Positions 32,802-43,649 of a stretch of DNA of 64,000 nucleotides are shown here, in pieces; positions within the stretch are counted from its first letter, which is position 1; each line of letters starts with the position of its first letter. The DNA comes from Escherichia coli. GTDB taxonomy: Bacteria > Pseudomonadota > Gammaproteobacteria > Enterobacterales > Enterobacteriaceae. Position numbers and translations under genes: made by a program. The stretch lies in assembly GCF_024502345.1 (NCBI RefSeq), contig NZ_JALDNN010000001.1; one strand, written 5' to 3'. The notes below the pieces were generated by a model, which was not told where the DNA came from, searched no databases, and was given only the letters and a program-made list of their open reading frames with translations.

Positions 32802-33030
32802 CTTTTTGTCCTTGTAACATAATTCCGTTCAACCACCGCCGACCGGTCAGCTTGGTTTCAATAACAAGCAATCTAAAACCTTAAGAGAACAACATCAATA
32901 CAAAAGTTGGAATATTTTTCCAAAACTAGATTTAGTCCACAAATTGAACAGGGTTATCATGTAAAAATACTGATAAATCAGAGGATAAGAAAATCACGCA
33001 ACTTGCGGATTTAAAAGGGGATACCTGAAG

Positions 33031-33957
33031 ATGTTCGATCCAGAAACCTTGCGGACTTTCATTGCGGTTGCTGAAACAGGAAGTTTTTCAAAAGCGGCAG
33101 AACGATTATGTAAAACCACGGCGACGATCAGTTATCGCATTAAACTTCTGGAAGAGAATACCGGAGTAGCGCTGTTTTTCCGCACGACTCGCAGCGTGAC
33201 GTTGACAGCGGCTGGCGAGCATCTACTTTCCCAGGCCAGAGACTGGCTGAGCTGGCTGGAAAGTATGCCAAGCGAGCTGCAACAGGTGAATGATGGCGTG
33301 GAACGCCAGGTGAATATTGTCATCAACAACCTGCTCTACAACCCCCAGGCCGTCGCCCAGTTGCTGGCGTGGCTGAATGAACGTTACCCCTTTACCCAGT
33401 TTCATATCTCCCGACAAATCTATATGGGCGTCTGGGATTCGCTATTATACGAAGGTTTTTCACTGGCTATCGGCGTCACGGGAACCGAGGCGCTGGCAAA
33501 TACCTTTAGTCTTGATCCCTTAGGATCGGTGCAATGGCGCTTTGTCATGGCGGCGGATCATCCGCTGGCGAACGTTGAAGAGCCGCTAACAGAAGCGCAG
33601 TTGCGGCGCTTTCCGGCGGTCAATATTGAAGACAGCGCCCGCACCTTAACCAAACGCGTCGCCTGGCGATTGCCAGGGCAAAAAGAGATTATTGTTCCTG
33701 ATATGGAAACGAAAATCGCCGCCCATCTTGCGGGCGTTGGCATTGGTTTTTTGCCAAAATCGCTTTGCCAGTCAATGATCGATAATCAACAACTGGTTAG
33801 CCGGGTAATCCCAACGATGCGCCCTCCTTCGCCATTGAGTCTGGCATGGCGCAAATTTGGCAGCGGCAAAGCGGTAGAAGATATTGTGACCTTGTTTACC
33901 CAGCGCAGGCCGGAAATCAGCGGATTTTTAGAAATTTTCGGCAACCCACGCAGTTAA
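33031..33957 (+). CDS. allS: LysR-family activator of allDCE
   Basis: 308 aa, [26 protein letters not shown]... Confidence 0.9.
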
Positions 33958-34010
33958 AAATCAAGTTTCCTTGCGCGTTGGCGCGTAAAATAGCGCGCAA
34001 GCTGATTTGA

Positions 34011-35120
<1,110 letters not shown>

Positions 35121-35199
35121 TGAGGGACGTATTTGTATTAGTCGCGACTTGATCTGACACATGGCCTTGAAAGGTTGAGAGTTACCGGTTTTGATATGA

Positions 35200-35580
35200 G
35201 TGTCGAATCCTTATCCAAAACAAGAGGTAACTCTCATGCTTCATACTGCCAATCCCGTCATCAAACACAAAGCCGGTTTGCTCAATCTGGCTGAAGAACT
35301 CAGCAACGTATCAAAAGCCTGTAAAATCATGGGCGTTTCGCGTGATACGTTTTATCGTTACCGCGAACTGGTCGCTGAAGGCGGTGTGGATGCGCAGATT
35401 AATCGTAGTCGCCGCGCTCCTAACCTTAAGAACCGTACCGATGAGGCAACTGAACAGGCTGTTGTTGATTACGCCGTCGCTTTCCCGACACATGGTCAGC
35501 ACCGGGCCAGCAACGAGCTGCGTAAACAGGGGGGTTTTTATCTCCGACAGTGGTGTCCGTTCTGTCTGGTTACTCCATAA
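35200..35580 (+). pseudogene. ybbD: IS481-family-like transposase, N-terminal fragment
   Basis: 126-aa ORF with HTH ...KACKIMGVSRDTFYRYRELVAEGGVDAQINRSRRAPNLKNRTDEATEQAVVDYAVAFPTHGQHRASNELRKQG...; the DDE catalytic domain is missing. Confidence 0.6.
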
Positions 35581-35620
35581 CCTTGAGAATCTCAAAAGAC
35601 GATACTGAACAAATTTTATC

Positions 35621-35756
35621 AGGTGACGTTCCGTAAAAAGTTGTATGGAGTTCTCGATGCAGTCGGCGCGACTATCAGTACCCCCGCTGAACCCTGGACT
35701 ATCGGGCCGCCGTACTGGGGCATGTCACCCTGGCGTGCCGCTGGTTTTCCGCTAAT
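35621..35756 (-). pseudogene. ylbH: Orphan Rhs N-terminal fragment
   Basis: Reads [26 protein letters not shown]..., about 80% nucleotide identity to the first ~95 nt of the rhs gene at 40806, but with ATT where that gene has ATG. Confidence 0.7.
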
Positions 35757-36122
35757 GGTTTATTTCCTCTTTCTTTCCCGGCAAGAATTTATTTTAATCC
35801 GGAAGGATTATTTATTTTCAGATAGGGACTCACATTAAACACGTAACATTTTAATTAATGCATGGCTGAATATGTATTACACAATGTCAGATATCGTAAA
35901 AGACCAGTGCAATTCTATGTAAACTCTCTGACTGTTCATTTTATTTGTTGTTTCAGGGTCGGAACTCACCCTCAATAAACAACTGAATACGAGTAGATAT
36001 TCATCGTCTGAGCTATATGGCTTTACACAATAGCCGACATGTCTTTTCTCAGTCAGGAATTTTACTTTTCCTCACTACGAAGTTGACGACTTCGATATGG
36101 GATAGACTCTTAATTCAAGCAA

Positions 36123-36584
36123 TTACTCTGCACAAGCATCAGGCAATCCAGCTCCAATATTTGTTATAAAATAATGCGTAACATTAATTTCACCAACAAA
36201 AAAAAGGTTTACACCATCCCCTTGCCCTGGTATCTTACCATATTTACACCACACTTTTTTTGTATCTGGATCATTCTTTGATACGATTTTCGCCACTTGT
36301 TCCCTGGCCCTCACTGTCAATGTTTTCTTAAACCTACCCCCATCATCATTTGTTAGGGAAAAATAAGAAAAAAAATAATCATCTTCTACATTTGTGTATA
36401 TTGATATATCCACCGCTACGTGCGGAAAAAAATCTGGGAGCCATGTAAAAACTCCATCATTTTCTGGTATTGCCATATAGTTTATGTAATGTTTACTTAC
36501 AAGAGATTCATCTTTGTATAAATAAAGATAAGTAATTACGCATAAAACAACAATGATTATAATAGCAAAAATAAATATTATCAT
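36123..36584 (-). CDS. Putative Rhs immunity protein (N-terminal transmembrane helix)
   Basis: AT-rich ORF just downstream of the rhs stop; MIIFIFAIIIIVVLCVITYLYLY...; the longer version starting at 36614 would overlap rhs by 20 nt. Confidence 0.6.
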   Translation of the reverse strand: MIIFIFAIIIIVVLCVITYLYLYKDESLVSKHYINYMAIPENDGVFTWLPDFFPHVAVDISIYTNVEDDYFFSYFSLTNDDGGRFKKTLTVRAREQVAKIVSKNDPDTKKVWCKYGKIPGQGDGVNLFFVGEINVTHYFITNIGAGLPDACAE

Positions 36585-36594
36585 CTTTGATAGA

Positions 36595-39500
36595 TTACTT
36601 GAGATAGCCAGCATCTTGTAAAGCCTTTATCGTTTTTTTATGCTCTGGATTAATATAATCACTACATCTATCTGAGCAATCTGTTGTTGATGGACATGTC
36701 AACCCATGGTCATTTACAGCCAAGTCTTTTTTATTATCTTCAATCATTTCAGAATGGGATAGCTTTACTTTTCTGCCGTACATACCGAACAGATTTAACC
36801 CGTAATCTCTAATCTCTTTTTCATAACCCAGCCCTTTCGCCGATCGGCTAACACCAGCGTCATTTAATTTAGACACTCGACAAAATGCCATACAATGAAA
36901 AAATTGATCAGTCCCACCTAAATTTAATCTCTTCATATCTTCATAAGTATCAGATAATATATCCCATGCTCTTTGATGGTTTAGTTGATCTTTTCTTCTT
37001 ATTAGCGCTACATCTGCGGGACTTAACCCTAATGGATCAATACCATTCACCGGATTCAGCGGATACGCATACAGACTCCATCCCCCCTCCAGCCCTATCG
37101 GGTCCTGAGTGATATACCGCCCCTGCAACGGATCGTAGTACCGGTTCCGGTTGTAGTACAGCCCCGACTCCTTATCATACTGCTGCCCCGGCAGCCGGTA
37201 CGGCTGGTGCAGGTGATGCGGGTTCTCCTCATTAAGCTGGTTGCCCCATTCATCATATTCCGCGCTCCACGCCGTATTGCCGTCTTCACTGATAAGCGCC
37301 AGCGGCAGGCCCCGGTGGTCACAGTGATAAAGATGTATTTTTCGCTCAGGCAAATAAACCGGCTCTATCTGTGCCGCCAGCCGCTCCACCGTCAGCCCGC
37401 ACTGCGCAAGCCACTGGCGGCTTTCACTGCTCACGCAGTTTGCCCGGATTTCCCCCTCCAGCCTGTCCAGCAGCCCCACCAGTTCAGCCGGGAACACCAC
37501 ACCGTGACCGTCTTCGCTCCCTTCCTGCTGTAACTTCTCCGCCAGGCTGCGGCACTGCGCTTTCTCCCGTTCACCGTTGTCTGTTTCGATGCGGATGAGC
37601 GGCGCGAAGCTCCCCGGCAGGTAGACCGTCTGGATTCGCGTGGTATCTGTCTGTACCGTCGTCAGGCGGTCTCCGTCCCAGCCGTACCATGTCATCTCCG
37701 GTTTACGCGACAGCGACATCCACCCCGTCAGGTCACGCTCCCGCCGCCATACCCGTTTCGCCATTCGCCGTCCCAGCGGGTCGTAGAGGTAGCGGCTCTC
37801 GACCAGTGGCTCGCCATGCTGTATCCGCGTGTGGAACACCAGGCGGTGCTGGCTGTCGTAGTGGTAGTGGTGGGTCCGCTCGTCGTCCGTCCGTATCACA
37901 CCCGTCGGGATGCGGTCCGTCTTCTCCGTCAGTCTGCCGTATTCATCATAGTGGTAAACATAGTGCGCATCCTCTGCGATGCGGTTATCCGGCCACGCCG
38001 TGAGCGTGCTGTCCGGGTGTAGCTCCGGGTCCGGCAGGCGGTTTCCCGCCGGGTCGGTGGCATACGGGATGCGGATGTCCAGGTCCGGTGCGAGGGTGCG
38101 CACGCTCTCCAGCCTGCCCGTGGCACTGTAGCCGTATTCCCGCGTCTGTCGCGGACCGCTGATGCGCACCAGGTCGCCGTTGTCATTCCACCCGTAGTCA
38201 CGGTCATACACCAGGCTGTTCAGGTGCTGGCTCTGTAACTGGCCTGCGGGGGTGTATGTGCTGGTCAGTTCATATGCGGCATTACTGCCTGCCATGCTGC
38301 CAAAGCTGCGCACCGTCTCCCGGTGCAGGCGGTCGCGCGTGTACTCCAGCAGCGGCGTGTCGCCGAGCTTCATGCCCGCCAGATAACCGCTGCCATACGT
38401 CAGCCACTCCACCGGCGGCAGGCTGTCCGGCGTGACGCGGTTTGCCAGCCCCTGTTCGTTGTAGGCGTGCGTTGTCTCATGCTGCCACAGCAGTTCCCCC
38501 GTCTCCGGGTTCTCCACCGTCTGGCGTTCGCCGGTCAGGCGGCCTTTATCGTCATAGCCGTAGTGGACCGACACGCGGTGGCCTTCACTGGTATGGCTGA
38601 GGGTGGTTAACCACCCGTGCTCATCATACTGCCACTGCTCTGCCGGGTCGCCGTTCACCGTCCGGTGCGTGATGCGGTCCGACGCATCGTAGTGCCAGAG
38701 GGTGATAAGCCCCTCATCCTCACTCTGCGTGAGTTTTCCGGTCAGGTCATAATGATAACGTTGCGTCCGCCCGTCAAAGCCGCCCTGCTGTACCAGCCGG
38801 TCCAGCGCATCGTAGCTGAAGTCGCTGTGACTGCCGTTCTCGTTAGTCAGACTGATGACACGTCCGGCAGCATCGTACTCCATACTGCGCGTCAGCCCGC
38901 CCTGCGTGGTGCTGACCGCCTTTCCCCACGCATCGTACTGTGTCTCGCTCCGGTTGCCGTCCGGGGTGATAACGGCAGTCAGGTCGCCTGCGGCGTTGTA
39001 CTCATACTGCGTTTCACGGCCCTGTGCGTCTTTCACCGAGGTTAACCGGCCACGGTTGTCATAGTGGCGGTAAAGGCTGATACCTTCCTCGCGGTGAACC
39101 GCCGTCATCTGGCCGAAGCGGTCGTATTCATAGCGGGTCTGGTAGCCCGAGCAGTCAGTGAACGCCAGCAACTGCCCGTAGCGGCTCCACGTCATCTGCC
39201 GGGTGCTGCCCGTCGCATCCGTTGTCGTCGCCGGTAACTCACTGTGCGCGTCATCGTAGCGGTAGCGTACTGTCTCCCCGCTGCGCGATGTCTCCGATAC
39301 CAGCCTGCCCGGTTCATCATATTCCCGGCGGCTCTCCAGCCCGTCCGGGTACACCACCGCCGTCAGCTGGTTCCCGTCGTTATAGTAAAATTTCGTCTCC
39401 CGCCCGTCCGGTGTGGTGATGTCCGTGATATCGCCGGACACCACATTCAGACCGTACTCTGTCCGCCGTCCCGCCGCGTCCGTCTGCGCCGTGAGCCTTC

Positions 39501-40806
39501 CTGCCGCGTCATACCCGCTGCGCGTGACGCTGCCGTCCGCCAGTTCTTTTTTCACCACCCGTTTCAGCCCGGCCCCGCCTTCTGTATGCAGCACCTCACG
39601 CCGGTTCAGGCTGTCGGTGACGGTGATGCGGTCCTGCTCATAAAGATAGCGGTAGCTTAACCCTGCCGGGTTCAGTTGCTCCACCACCCGCCCCGTATCG
39701 TCGTAGCGGTAGCGCATCTCCGGCCTGCCTGCATAACGGTGCCCCACCATCCGGCCCCGGTATTTATCATCGTAAGTAAAGTGGCGCATCTGCGTACCGC
39801 TGCGGTCATACACCGCCGCCAGCTCACCGCGTGGCGTCCAGTCGTAGCACACCAGTGGCGCGGCAGGTAAATTTTCCGGGTATTCCGGGTCGTGCATCAG
39901 CCACACCGCCGAAAGACGGATACCGCTGTCAGCGCCGTATTCCGTACCGGGCAGTGTGTCGGGGAAGGAAGGAGCTGAGAGAGGGCGGGGACTGTCAGGG
40001 GAAGATAACGAAGCGGTGTGCGGTTTACGGGCCTCTTCCGCCCGCTGTGCCTGTGTGGTCAGTACCAGACGGAACTCCCGCCCGGCACCGTCCGTCACGC
40101 CGGTGATTTCCCCGGCCAGGTCACCGGCGGCCTCACGCCGGTACGCCAGCGTCCGCCCGAAGCGGTCCGCCATCCCGGTAAGCACCCGGTACGGCGGCAG
40201 CGGCGCTGGCAGTAAGTCCTCAGCACCCGGCACCCGCTCAGACCACCCCAGTATCCACCACGGCCCCTGTGCGCTGTTGGTCGCCAGGTAAAGATGCGGG
40301 CTTAACCGGATATCCGGTGGCAGCGACGCCCACAGCCGTGCCAGCGTGTGGCCGTCCGGCTGCGCTGCCTTACCGCCACGCACCAGCCACATTGACTCAC
40401 TGCGGCTGTACACCGCCTCCCCCGGCAGCAGCGGCTCAAAGTGAATGCTCCGCCCGCCGTTGTCGTTGAGTATCAGTGCATCATCGCGTATCTGTAAGCG
40501 GATATCAGAAGGCGCTTTCCAGCCGGGGCCGAAAACGCCCACCGGTGCAGGCGTCTTCGTCCGGTAGCTGCTGTAGGTGCGGGAGAGAATGAACGGCAGC
40601 GGGCCGGGCAGCGCAAGGTCCGTCTCGCCGGGCTGTACTTTTGCACCGAGCAGCGGGTTCACCGGGTTGCCCGAGGTCATCCCGCCCGGACACACCGAGC
40701 ACGCCACGCCAGTTGGCGCGCCAATTCTTACACCTGCCGAACCCTGGACAATGGGACCGCCATACTGAGTCATATCTCCCTGACGCGCCGCTGGTTTTCC
40801 GCTCAT
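36595..40806 (-). CDS. rhsD: Rhs-family polymorphic toxin (YD-repeat protein)
   Basis: 1403 aa; N-terminus [25 protein letters not shown]; many YD repeats; DPxGL motif ([12 protein letters not shown]) followed by a 141-aa AT-rich C-terminal tip (about 36598-37020). Locus equated to rhsD by position. Confidence 0.9.
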
Positions 40807-41234
40807 ATAAAGTGCCCTTTTAGTTATTGTTCATATCCCTGTGTTAGCAACAAAAAAAATAAAATGACACACAAGACCAGCTAATGTATTTATATATTTT
40901 TCACATAAACTTATTTGTTCTCAATCAACAACAACTGTTATTACAGGTCACTTTCAATATTTTATTAAACTAAAATTTTTAGCACAGATGAATTCATCAT
41001 CAACAAATTCACTATATGGATAATATCCATTCAACGCATATGATTTATGATTTTATTAGTCTGAGTTATTTTTGTAGGGCTATATTTAAAATTATTAAAC
41101 TCCACCGATTCAGATTAATATCGCAATAGAAAGATAGGAAATCACCAATTCAATAACATCATCAATGAAACATATTGTAGAATTAATTTAAACAAGGCGT
41201 TCCATTCAACCAGAACGCCCCTTATTTACTCTCA

Positions 41235-43649
41235 TCACCCCGCAAACTGCCTGAACAGCGCCTTACCCTTAACCAGTCGCGCACCCAGCCAGCCGCCGAA
41301 AAGCGACAGCAGCAGCGCACCGCTGCACGGCAGAACAATCCACAATCGCCAGTCTGGCTCCCACGGGAAATCAAACACTTTCGCCTGCAACACTGCCAGT
41401 GCCGTTTCCGCACCAATTGCGGCCACCAGGCCGGAAACAAACCCAAGCATGACGAACTCACACCACAATGTCGTGCGCAGCAGTTTTTTCCCCGCACCGA
41501 GTGTGCGCCATACCACCAGCTCCTGATGACGCTGGCGCATTCCCACCTGCACCTGTGCCAGCAACAGCAACATACCGCAGGCGGTGACCAGCACCACCAT
41601 CACCTCCAGCGCCCGACTTACCTGCTCCAGCACCTGACCGACCTGTTTTAAAATCGCGCCAATATCTAACAGGCTAATGGTCGGGAACTGGCGGTTGAGT
41701 TGCGTCAACATGCCGTTGCCATTCTCCCAGCGGAAACTGGTAAGCCAGCTCTGCGGTTGCCCGTCTAATGCCCCTTCCGGGAAAATAAAATAGAAATTAG
41801 GCCGCAGACTTTCCCAGTCCACTTTGCGCAGGCTGGTCACTTTAGCGCGGAACTCCTGGGTATCGCCCATAAAAGTCACGGTATCACCGAGGGCAACGTT
41901 TAAGCGTTTCGCCAGCCCCTCTTCCATCGACACTTCATCGGCTTTTGGCGGCCAGTTACCGGCGACAATCGGATTATGATCGGGCCGCGTATTTTGCCAG
42001 GTAAGATTGAGTTCGCGATTAAGCGCCTCATCTTCATTACCTTCTGTCGGCTTATCGTTAATCGCCGTCAGCCGCGCCCGCACTACCGGATAAAATGATT
42101 CCGGGACTATATGATGTTCCGCGAGGAACGCTTTTAGCGGTGCTACCTGTTCTGTGGCGATGTTAATTAAAAAGTAGTTCGGGCTTTCTGGCGGTAGCTG
42201 CTGCTGCCAGCGGTCGAGCAGATCGCCACGCAATACCAGCAACAGCGCCAGCAGCATAAAGGAGAGCGAAAATGCCGAAAGCTGGCTTAACGTTGACCAC
42301 GGCTGACGTAACAGGCGGCTAACCGCCAGGCGCAAAGGTAGCGATTTCAGCGTCATGCGGCGAAGTACATTCAGCTGCATCCAGCCCAGCACACCGCACA
42401 GCAAAGCCAGTACTACCGCGCCCGCCAGCACCGCCCAAAGCAGCATGCTGCCACCCATTAATCCGGCGAGCAGCAGCACAACCACCACACTGACAATCGG
42501 CAGATAAAACTTCAGCGGCCAGACGTTCGCTACCACATCATTATGTAATACGCGTAAAGGCTGCGTTGCCAGCAACAAGCGGTATGGTCGTAGCCCCACC
42601 AGCAGCGAGATGACCGTCATGGTGCCAAGCGCCCACAGCCACGGCCAGAGGCTGGCTGGCGGTAGTGCAGCAGGCAGAACGGGCTTGAGCAGCACCATCA
42701 ACACGTTTTCGAACAACAGGCCTATGGCCCCACCGGTAACGGCTGAAAGCGTCAGCACCATCAACCACTGACCGACGATTAGCTTACGCAGTTGCGCTCG
42801 CCCTGCCCCCAGCGTTTTGAGGATCGCCACCAGATCGTAGCGACTGCGACAGTAATGATTCATCGCTACCGCCACCGCTGCCACTGCCAGCAGCAAGGTC
42901 AGAAGCGCCGAAAGCAGCAGGAACTGTTGCGAGCGTTCCATCGATCGCCCCAGCGCGCCTTCGTCCTGTTCCAGACCGTACCAGCGTTGTTCGGGTTTAA
43001 GCTGAGGTAACAACCATTTCTCATAGCCGTCGAGCTGGTTCTCGTTGCCGCCGAATTTATAACGCCAGGTGACCCGACTCCCCGGCTGCACGGCTCCGGT
43101 TTTATCGACATCCGCCAGATTCATCATCAGACGCGGAGCCATCTGGAAGGGGTTAAAACCGGAATCCGGTTCCTGAATCACTTCTCCGGCAATCCGCAAG
43201 GTGGCATCGCCCACGTCAATGGTGTCGCCCGTTTTCAGGTTAAGCAGTGCCATCAGGCGTGGGGCCAGCAATACGCTGCCCGCCTGCGGTTTCAGGCCAG
43301 GGGGATTAGTTTGCAGATCGCCATACATCGGGTAGATATCATCCACCGCTTTGACGTTCGCCAGCTGCGGTGTGTCGCCTGCAAAGGTCATTGTGGCGAA
43401 AGTCAGCTGCTTGCCGACTTTCAGGCCGCGCTTTTGCGCTTCCTCCAGCCACGCTTGCGGCACTTCGCGTGAACTGCGCAACGCCCGATCGCCCGCCATA
43501 AACTCACGGCTTTGCTGGCTTAAGCCCTTCTCCATGCGATCGCTGATATTGCCCAGCGCCAGCACGCAGGCCACCGCCAGGCTTAGCGCCAGCCAGACAA
43601 TTAATAGCGACGGCGAACGCCATTCGCGCCAGAACCAACGTGCAATCAT
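41235..43649 (-). CDS. ybbP: ABC transporter permease (FtsX-like, two-domain)
   Basis: 804 aa, MIARWFWREWRSPSLLIVWLALSLAVACVLAL... Confidence 0.9.
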   Translation of the reverse strand: MIARWFWREWRSPSLLIVWLALSLAVACVLALGNISDRMEKGLSQQSREFMAGDRALRSSREVPQAWLEEAQKRGLKVGKQLTFATMTFAGDTPQLANVKAVDDIYPMYGDLQTNPPGLKPQAGSVLLAPRLMALLNLKTGDTIDVGDATLRIAGEVIQEPDSGFNPFQMAPRLMMNLADVDKTGAVQPGSRVTWRYKFGGNENQLDGYEKWLLPQLKPEQRWYGLEQDEGALGRSMERSQQFLLLSALLTLLLAVAAVAVAMNHYCRSRYDLVAILKTLGAGRAQLRKLIVGQWLMVLTLSAVTGGAIGLLFENVLMVLLKPVLPAALPPASLWPWLWALGTMTVISLLVGLRPYRLLLATQPLRVLHNDVVANVWPLKFYLPIVSVVVVLLLAGLMGGSMLLWAVLAGAVVLALLCGVLGWMQLNVLRRMTLKSLPLRLAVSRLLRQPWSTLSQLSAFSLSFMLLALLLVLRGDLLDRWQQQLPPESPNYFLINIATEQVAPLKAFLAEHHIVPESFYPVVRARLTAINDKPTEGNEDEALNRELNLTWQNTRPDHNPIVAGNWPPKADEVSMEEGLAKRLNVALGDTVTFMGDTQEFRAKVTSLRKVDWESLRPNFYFIFPEGALDGQPQSWLTSFRWENGNGMLTQLNRQFPTISLLDIGAILKQVGQVLEQVSRALEVMVVLVTACGMLLLLAQVQVGMRQRHQELVVWRTLGAGKKLLRTTLWCEFVMLGFVSGLVAAIGAETALAVLQAKVFDFPWEPDWRLWIVLPCSGALLLSLFGGWLGARLVKGKALFRQFAG

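What the first reader, a model, noticed from the sequence alone, without database searches (positions are those of the whole stretch)
35200..35580. IS481-family-like transposase N-terminal fragment bordering the Rhs island
The 126-aa ORF has the HTH plus RSRRP-type motif arrangement of IS481-family transposase N-termini but no catalytic domain. Together with the orphan Rhs fragment and the AT-rich spacer (35840-36120) it marks the edge of the Rhs accessory island next to selU.
Basis: partly seen in the sequence, partly recalled or inferred. Interest (0 to 1): 0.3.

Follow-up and report, generated by a model that had tools for sequence, protein, structure and literature searches.

The report
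Dead IS481-family insertion sequence remnant (ylbG)
The 126-codon reading frame is the already annotated E. coli pseudogene ylbG, a broken leftover of a 1.2-kb IS481-family jumping gene that sits at the selU-side edge of the Rhs toxin island and can no longer move; it is an ordinary finding.

Summary
The window is the E. coli allS–mnmH(selU)–ylbG–rhs–ybbP region. RefSeq annotates this ORF as the pseudogene ylbG.

The relic spans 35134-35661, which is wider than the reported ORF. It is made of these pieces:
- an intact 26-bp left inverted repeat, 13 bp after the selU stop codon;
- the leader, with a hairpin over the ribosome-binding site;
- transposase codons 1-122, the HTH part;
- a deletion of about 470 bp that removes the whole DDE/rve catalytic core;
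- a 66-bp scrap of transposase codons 278-298.

The last ~200 bp of the IS, including the right inverted repeat, are missing. The break abuts a 32-codon N-terminal Rhs fragment on the other strand.

Positions 35134-35601 are 95.7% identical to an intact 1201-bp IS481-family element. That element's transposase scores 293 bits against a 224-bit cutoff. It occurs nearly full-length in 77 of 5426 complete E. coli genomes, with a 7-bp target duplication in one copy.

The window carries an extra G in a G5 run, so the last 14 residues of the reported ORF are out-of-frame junk. Other strains carry other slippage alleles.

Genomes without the island lose homology at 35122-35127, so the relic does mark the island edge.

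Verdict: already known, low interest.

The parts
35134..35159 (+). Left terminal inverted repeat (IRL) of the IS481-family element, TGTATTAGTCGCGACTTGATCTGACA, 13 bp downstream of the selU/mnmH stop codon
   Evidence: Invariant in the alignment with three intact copies and two other relics. Flanks diverge immediately to the left. It pairs with the IRR in intact copies (26 nt, 81%). The ends are confirmed by a 7-bp target duplication, TTTAATG, in L012.
35160..35235 (+). IS leader / 5' UTR. A hairpin with arms 35171-35186 and 35226-35241 covers the Shine-Dalgarno sequence and the ATG.
   Evidence: The same inverted repeat occurs in all intact copies (I3, 16 nt, 88%). RNA fold: -34.8 kcal/mol, z = -2.9, 0 of 200 shuffles as good. 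The antisense strand gives a sub-threshold Rfam psRNA2 match.
35236..35601 (+). Transposase codons 1-122 (HTH_29 domain plus linker), equal to ylbG. Frameshifted here by a +1 G in the run 35529-35534.
   Evidence: tblastn against the intact 346-aa transposase gives 94% identity over aa 1-101, then aa 98-122 in the next frame. PGAP annotates 'ylbG, frameshifted; incomplete; missing C-terminus'. G-run comparison. Pfam and NCBIfam matches.
35200..35580 (+). It has 12 spurious N-terminal codons and 14 out-of-frame C-terminal codons.
35593..35605 (+). Internal deletion junction. IS positions ~468-938 (transposase aa 123-277, the rve/DDE core) are missing. Short AAAA(A)AC microhomology lies at the joint.
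   Evidence: The two blastn segments overlap at 35593-35601. Sequences printed. The rve domain is at aa 162-267 of the intact protein.
35596..35661 (+). Scrap of the transposase C-terminal region (aa 278-298, KTILNKFYQVTFRKKLYGVLD), equal to IS positions 931-999, 81% nt identity
35660..35756 (-). Orphan N-terminal Rhs fragment (32 codons, [31 protein letters not shown]; start codon mutated to ATT). It abuts the IS break point. It is called ylbI in K-12 (name from memory, supported by the ybbD>ylbI order in PMC3946193).
   Evidence: 79% identical over 97 nt to the first 97 nt of the main rhs gene, 40710-40806. Translation. PGAP annotates a partial 'hypothetical protein, missing C-terminus'.
35757..36122 (-). 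AT-rich spacer, the former upstream region of the orphan rhs start. It contains the RpoD-SELEX promoter TCGTCA-19-TAAAAT at 36059-36089 (minus strand).
   Evidence: GC 0.34-0.385. The promoter pattern is found once, with 0 expected by chance. It is listed for the ybbD>ylbI spacer in PMC3946193.

Best explanation
The feature is ylbG, an inert relic of a 1201-bp IS481-family insertion sequence. It lies at the left (mnmH/selU) boundary of the ~6.1-kb Rhs island that occupies the mnmH-ybbP intergenic hot spot.

Proposed history, inferred from the anatomy:
- An intact IS sat with its left end 13 bp downstream of the selU stop codon.
- An illegitimate (microhomology) deletion removed IS positions ~468-938, the DDE core.
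- A second deletion removed the last ~200 bp with the right inverted repeat. It fused IS position ~999 to codon 32 of an oppositely oriented rhs gene start.
- Homopolymer slippage later produced frameshift alleles.

The element cannot transpose on its own because it has no catalytic domain. It cannot be mobilised in trans because it has only one end. Its practical meaning is as a scar that marks the island edge.

What survives is the left repeat, the leader hairpin and an HTH-only ORF. The ORF is most likely not functional. If expressed, it could at most bind the ends of intact sister copies. That last point is speculation.
For: Identity with ylbG: the 35100-36200 stretch is 99.9-100% identical to the annotated ylbG locus, and 2722 of 5426 complete E. 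coli genomes, K-12 MG1655 among them, cover at least 80% of it. PGAP flags it as a pseudogene. The window is collinear with K-12 at 98.9% over 33001-37272.

IS origin: 35134-35601 matches IS positions 1-467 at 95.7%, and 35593-35661 matches IS 931-999 at 81%. The intact relative scores 293 bits on NF033577 against a 224-bit cutoff and has rve/rve_3 domains. IS ends are defined by the IRL/IRR pair and a 7-bp target duplication. The intact IS occurs at >=80% length in 77 of 5426 genomes, with up to 9 matching places per genome.

Loss of function: there is no IRR within 3 mismatches anywhere in the window. No homology to aa 123-277 is found. At least three slippage alleles exist at the G5T5 tract: K-12 type P0001 (123 aa), P0088 (132 aa) and this window. 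Compared with the intact E. coli copies, ylbG shows 9 non-synonymous and 4 synonymous differences. That is close to the neutral expectation of about 3:1.

Island edge: ylbG-less genomes break at 35111-35127, and BEN2908 has an empty 58-bp mnmH-ybbP spacer.

Neutrality in practice: the K-12 ybbD-ylbG interval is used as a chromosomal landing pad (PMC2847246; bioRxiv 10.1101/2020.01.04.894907).
Against: The first ~98 codons (the HTH) remain open in every allele seen, and the leader is intact. Expression of a short DNA-binding protein is therefore not excluded. The 9:4 substitution count is too small to prove neutrality. The order of the two deletions, and whether the IS arrived before or with the Rhs island, cannot be determined from the data. 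No expression data were examined.
Confidence: 0.95

Rival explanations
1. ylbG is a domesticated HTH protein. Either it is a stand-alone transcription factor, as some records name it ('DNA-binding transcriptional regulator'), or it is a truncated-transposase inhibitor. In the second case it would bind the inverted repeats of intact sister IS copies and dampen their transposition, as truncated or N-terminal transposase products are said to do for other IS families (from memory, not checked here).
For: The HTH part (codons 1-98) is open in all alleles seen. The leader, SD and ATG are conserved. N-terminal fragments of this IS are very common in Enterobacteriaceae: all of the best 120 protein hits are 216 aa or shorter. 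Intact copies are rare in E. coli, 77 of 5426 genomes.
Against: Frameshift alleles differ between strains right after the HTH. The non-synonymous to synonymous ratio of 9:4 is near neutral. Most of the listed chromosomes that carry an intact copy show two or more matching places, and one shows 7. That fits coexistence with ylbG but was not verified. PGAP treats it as a pseudogene. The locus is used as a neutral landing pad. The other fragments have unrelated break points, as expected for random decay.
Confidence: 0.04
2. It is a non-autonomous, MITE-like deletion derivative that intact copies can still mobilise in trans.
For: It has an internal deletion and a perfect left inverted repeat.
Against: The right inverted repeat is absent from the whole 64-kb window, and IS positions 1000-1201 are missing. 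The same junctions occur at one chromosomal site: 2722 genomes cover at least 80% of the 35100-36200 stretch, and 2813 records match it at >=99% identity. That points to one fixed event, not repeated mobilisation.
Confidence: 0.005
3. It is a component of the Rhs element itself, like the H-rpt (ISAs1-family) elements that some Rhs elements carry (from memory).
For: It is physically adjacent to Rhs fragments.
Against: The NCBIfam hits are IS481, with weak IS3, IS630 and ISNCY matches and no ISAs1 match. The same IS occurs independently of Rhs on plasmids and in nanQ, next to cnf1 and elsewhere.
Confidence: 0.005

Closest known systems
E. coli K-12 pseudogene ylbG (b0502, number from memory), annotated by RefSeq/PGAP as 'helix-turn-helix domain-containing protein, incomplete, missing C-terminus'
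   Same: Same locus, same synteny (allS-mnmH-ylbG-Rhs fragment) and same junctions. The 35100-36200 stretch is 99.9% identical to K-12.
   Different: The window carries one extra G in the G-run 35529-35534. This gives a 126-aa (GTG) or 114-aa (ATG) frame in place of the 123-aa K-12 frame. Only one complete genome, NZ_LR536431.1, was 100% identical over the stretch.
Intact 1201-bp IS481-family insertion sequence of Escherichia. Examples: E. albertii plasmid pEA13_3 NZ_CP117662.1 62040-63240 (WP_256878404.1) and E. coli Z1323CEC0019 WP_024236841.1. PGAP gives it no specific name, and some submitters label relatives 'ISSod13'.
   Same: The left inverted repeat, the leader hairpin and transposase codons 1-122 match at 95.7% nt identity, and codons 278-298 at 81%.
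   Different: The window copy lacks aa 123-277 (the rve/DDE core), aa ~299-346 and the right inverted repeat, and no target duplication can be assessed.
IS481 family (NCBIfam NF033577; type element IS481 of Bordetella pertussis, from memory)
   Same: Same N-terminal HTH architecture. The best family hit has E 1.5e-19 and aligns to profile positions 2-91.
   Different: At 70.6 bits it falls far below the 224-bit family cutoff, because two thirds of the protein are missing.
Other relics of the same or related IS: the IncX1 plasmids of Salmonella Heidelberg, the fragment next to cnf1 in E. coli MS20658, and the fragment at the betA/ipbA island edge in B2 strains
   Same: Each is a truncated left-end or N-terminal fragment left in accessory DNA or at an island edge.
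   Different: They have independent break points and different neighbours. The betA relic is only ~76% identical, so it comes from an older or different family member.

Membership tests
IS481-family insertion sequence | N-terminal HTH DNA-binding region homologous to IS481-family transposases | tested here: met
   Pfam HTH_29 at 2.2e-20. NCBIfam NF033577 is the best hit, 1.5e-19, profile positions 2-91 of 284.
IS481-family insertion sequence | Whole-protein score above the curated NF033577 cutoff (224 bits) | tested here: not met
   The window ORF scores 70.6 bits. The intact relative scores 293 bits.
IS481-family insertion sequence | DDE / integrase-core (rve) catalytic domain | tested here: not met
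   No rve hit in the window ORFs. tblastn finds only aa 1-122 and 278-298 of the 346-aa transposase. The rve and rve_3 domains lie at aa 162-326 of the intact protein.
IS481-family insertion sequence | Terminal inverted repeats at both ends | tested here: not met
   The IRL is present and perfect at 35134-35159. The IRR has no match within 3 mismatches in the window, and IS 1000-1201 has no homolog.
IS481-family insertion sequence | Flanking target-site duplication | not testable with these tools
   The right end is deleted, so no duplication can be assessed in the window. An intact copy, L012, shows a 7-bp duplication TTTAATG.
IS481-family insertion sequence | Descent from a bona fide member (near-identity to an intact element) | tested here: met
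   95.7% identity over 468 aligned nt to the intact 1201-bp IS, including non-coding end sequences.
E. coli ylbG pseudogene locus | Sequence identity and synteny with the annotated ylbG between mnmH and the Rhs fragments | tested here: met
   99.9-100% identity. ylbG is annotated under the match in every genome listed. The window is collinear with K-12.
Rhs-associated H-rpt (ISAs1-family) element | ISAs1-type transposase homology | tested here: not met
   No ISAs1 model appears among the NCBIfam hits at E<=1.
Rfam RF02349 psRNA2 | Score at or above the gathering threshold (65 bits) | tested here: not met
   31.1 bits on the minus strand at 35062-35233. The intact IS copies reach 43.3 and 34.2 bits.

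The most novel reading that the evidence does not exclude
The HTH-only product of ylbG is expressed and acts in trans on the inverted repeats of intact sister IS481-family copies, or on a host promoter. On this reading it is a fixed, host-retained transposition inhibitor or regulator, which would help explain why intact copies are rare in E. coli (77 of 5426 genomes) while the relic is carried by about half of all strains.
Probability: 0.04. Interest if true: 0.3.

Novelty: already known. Interest (0 to 1): 0.08.

Why it matters
It matters little. The result confirms that this ORF should be treated as a pseudogene or IS scar and not as a regulator. It fixes the true extent of the relic (35134-35661). 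It also places the left boundary of the Rhs island within a few bases of the selU stop codon. That is useful for annotation hygiene and for describing the mnmH-ybbP site as a hot spot for interchangeable toxin cargo. It opens no new biological question.

Tried and rejected
- Searched the whole window for the right inverted repeat with up to 3 mismatches: none found.
- Ran blastn of the whole intact IS against the 64-kb window: only the two adjacent segments match, with no other copies.
- The consensus promoter scan of 35000-36200 found no sigma-70-like site. It found one terminator-like hairpin, inside the Rhs fragment, which is no more than chance.
- Pfam and NCBIfam scans of the overlapping ORFs 35342-35608 and 35623-35838 gave nothing. 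tblastn later explained both frames as out-of-frame pieces of the transposase.
- A literature search for ylbG found no functional study, only its use as a landing-pad flank and listings in tables.
- A search for 'ISSod13' gave no paper naming the E. coli element. ISfinder itself is not available here, so the element's ISfinder name remains unknown.
- I considered that the 202-aa 'HTH + rve_3' proteins of Klebsiella and Salmonella (P0009) might be a functional short form. Their C-terminus reads by eye like an IS3-family transposase tail, so they look like chimeric junk. This was not followed further.
- The MITE and H-rpt readings were rejected, as set out under the rival explanations.

Full report
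**What is there**

The window around the finding is the E. coli allS–mnmH(selU)–…–rhs–ybbP region, in reverse orientation relative to K-12.
- allS lies at 33031-33957 (+) and mnmH/selU at 34026-35120 (+).
- A 1403-aa Rhs protein lies at 36595-40806 (-), with a 163-aa downstream ORF at 36123-36614 (-).
- ybbP lies at 41235-43649 (-).

The reported ORF (35200-35580, GTG start, 126 aa) exists. It matches Pfam HTH_29 (E 2.2e-20). Its best NCBIfam match is the IS481 transposase model NF033577 (E 1.5e-19), aligned only to profile positions 2-91 of 284. At 70.6 bits it is far below the 224-bit family cutoff, as expected for a fragment.

**It is the known pseudogene ylbG**

Megablast of 35100-36200 against 5426 complete E. 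coli genomes finds the stretch in 2722 genomes at >=80% coverage, and 2813 records match it at >=99% identity. In every genome listed, K-12 MG1655 among them, the feature under the match is 'ylbG: helix-turn-helix domain-containing protein', flagged as a pseudogene. In the one genome identical to the window it also reads 'frameshifted'. The window is collinear with K-12 at 98.9% over 33001-37272.

**The parent element**

tblastn against plasmids and blastn against E. coli genomes recovered intact relatives.
- The element is 1201 bp, bounded by TGTATTAGTCGCGACTTGATCTGACA and its imperfect inverted copy (26 nt, 81%).
- One chromosomal insertion beside nanQ has a 7-bp target duplication, TTTAATG.
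- It encodes a 346-aa transposase that scores 293 bits on NF033577 against a 224-bit cutoff. Pfam places HTH_29, rve (aa 162-267) and rve_3 (aa 256-326) on it.
- Copies of at least 80% of the length occur in only 77 of 5426 genomes, with up to 9 matching places per genome. The element therefore looks alive but rare in E. coli.

**Anatomy of the relic**

- Window 35134-35601 equals IS positions 1-467 at 95.7% identity.
- Window 35593-35661 equals IS positions 931-999 at 81%.
- Nothing else in the 64-kb window matches the IS.

The left inverted repeat is intact at 35134-35159, 13 bp after the selU stop codon. In a six-sequence alignment the flanks diverge exactly at its first base.

The leader (35160-35235) keeps a conserved hairpin. 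Its arms at 35171-35186 and 35226-35241 cover the Shine-Dalgarno sequence and the ATG at 35236. The fold is -34.8 kcal/mol with z = -2.9.

Codons 1-122 of the transposase follow. A deletion of about 470 bp, with AAAA(A)AC microhomology at the joint, then removes aa 123-277, which is the entire catalytic core. After it comes a 66-bp scrap that encodes KTILNKFYQVTFRKKLYGVLD (aa 278-298) in another frame.

IS positions 1000-1201 are gone. The right inverted repeat has no match within 3 mismatches anywhere in the window.

At 35660/35661 the IS sequence is joined to the minus-strand start of an rhs gene. The 97 nt at 35660-35756 are 79% identical to the first 97 nt of the main rhs gene (40710-40806). 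They translate to [31 protein letters not shown], and the start codon has mutated to ATT.

**The frameshift**

The intact IS reads CAGGGCGTTTTT and K-12 reads CAGGGGGTTTTT. The window reads CAGGGGGGTTTTT, a +1 G at 35529-35534.

A very common third allele, P0088 (132 aa, on at least 1000 contigs), reads as a -1 slip in the adjacent T-run when translated by hand. Alternative slippage alleles indicate no constraint on the sequence beyond the HTH.

Compared with the intact E. coli copies, ylbG carries 9 non-synonymous and 4 synonymous differences. That is close to the neutral expectation of about 3:1. The sample is small.

**The island-edge claim**

Nearly all genomes have mnmH (5406 of 5426), but only 2903 continue into ylbG. 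In the rest, homology stops at query positions 411-427, which correspond to window 35111-35127.

Downstream of mnmH these genomes differ:
- BEN2908 has ybbP after a 58-bp spacer, which is the empty site.
- EC71 has a dinQ-like type I toxin gene.
- ST131 has an Hcp-fusion (tssD) gene with three DUF2931 genes.

In the window the accessory segment therefore runs from about 35128 to about 41232, roughly 6.1 kb. The IS left end lies within about 6 bp of its left boundary.

It contains the sequence TCGTCA-19-TAAAAT at 36059-36089 (-). Shimada et al. list this as an RpoD-holoenzyme site in the ybbD>ylbI spacer (PMC3946193).

**Mechanism**

What is shown:
- there is no catalytic domain;
- there is only one terminal repeat;
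- the same junctions sit at one fixed chromosomal position in every carrier examined.

What is inferred:
- one ancestral insertion was followed by two illegitimate deletions and later homopolymer slippage;
- the element is immobile and most probably non-functional.

The K-12 interval next to it (ybbD-ylbG) is routinely used as a chromosomal landing pad (PMC2847246; bioRxiv 10.1101/2020.01.04.894907).

One reading I cannot exclude is that the still-open HTH ORF makes a small DNA-binding protein that binds sister IS ends or a host site. I give this about 4%. Most of the listed chromosomes that carry an intact copy show two or more matching places, and one shows 7. That fits coexistence of intact copies with ylbG and argues weakly against strong inhibition, but I did not verify that the extra places are ylbG.

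**Comparison with known families, and verdict**

It is derived from an IS481-family element, through near-identity to a bona fide member. As it stands it fails the family's defining features:
- it scores below the family cutoff;
- it has no DDE domain;
- it has only one inverted repeat;
- no target duplication can be assessed.

The correct label is therefore 'IS481-family relic / pseudogene ylbG', not 'IS481-family IS'. It is not an H-rpt/ISAs1 element of the kind associated with some Rhs loci. It is already annotated, so novelty is 'already known' and interest is low.

Noticed in passing
window 35062-35233 (-); L012:12-200 (-) and L012:1274-1324 (+); L008:1820-1998 (-): Rfam family RF02349 'psRNA2' gives sub-threshold matches to the antisense of the IS left repeat plus leader: 31 bits in the window and 43 and 34 bits on intact copies, against a gathering score of 65. 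It also gives a weak match (18 bits) to the right repeat. The aligned consensus reads as the reverse complement of the IS end. The Rfam 'sRNA' family may therefore have been modelled on IS481-type IS termini.
   Followed up: partly
window ~35121-41234; L009, L010, L011: The mnmH-ybbP intergenic site is a cargo hot spot. It is empty in BEN2908 (58 bp). It holds a dinQ-like type I toxin gene in EC71 and an Hcp-fusion tssD gene with three DUF2931 genes in ST131. In this window and in K-12 it holds ylbG plus the Rhs element.
   Followed up: partly
window 36123-40806 (-) compared with L002 (K-12): The window's single 1403-aa Rhs protein ends in the C-terminal tip that K-12 carries as a separate Rhs C-terminal fragment (ylbH). 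The 163-aa ORF downstream (36123-36614, no Pfam hit) covers the stretch that K-12 annotates as two short ORFs (ybbD). About 975 bp of K-12, covering the rhsD 3' end, ybbC and the junction with the fragment, have no counterpart. This looks like tip displacement or recombination between the main and orphan rhs genes.
   Followed up: partly
L015:1501-1662 and L016:1501-1627 (E. coli B2 strains): A second, older relic of a related IS left end is ~76-80% identical to window 35137-35298. It sits at or just after the betA stop codon, between betA and the ipbA (fimX/hbiF) invertase gene. This is another IS481-like scar next to the end of a core gene. 1203 records have their best match to the ylbG query in the 60-80% identity band.
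   Followed up: partly
P0009, P0012, P0057 etc.; L003, L005: N-terminal fragments of this IS are widespread in Klebsiella, Salmonella and Escherichia, and on IncX1 and IncF plasmids. All of the best 120 protein hits are 216 aa or shorter. Some are chimeras, for example a 202-aa form whose C-terminus reads by eye like an IS3-family transposase tail. Break points differ between loci.
   Followed up: no
window 36059-36089 (-): The sequence TCGTCA-19-TAAAAT, reported as an RpoD-holoenzyme (constitutive promoter) site for the ybbD>ylbI spacer in K-12 (PMC3946193), is conserved in the window. It points toward the dead rhs N-terminal fragment and, beyond it, antisense into the IS relic.
   Followed up: no
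H2-H7 (other E. coli genomes): In several strains the 35100-36200 stretch is additionally split by an IS1A or IS1B insertion (two blast pieces, about 0.8 kb extra). This fits the region being a tolerated sink for IS insertions.
   Followed up: no
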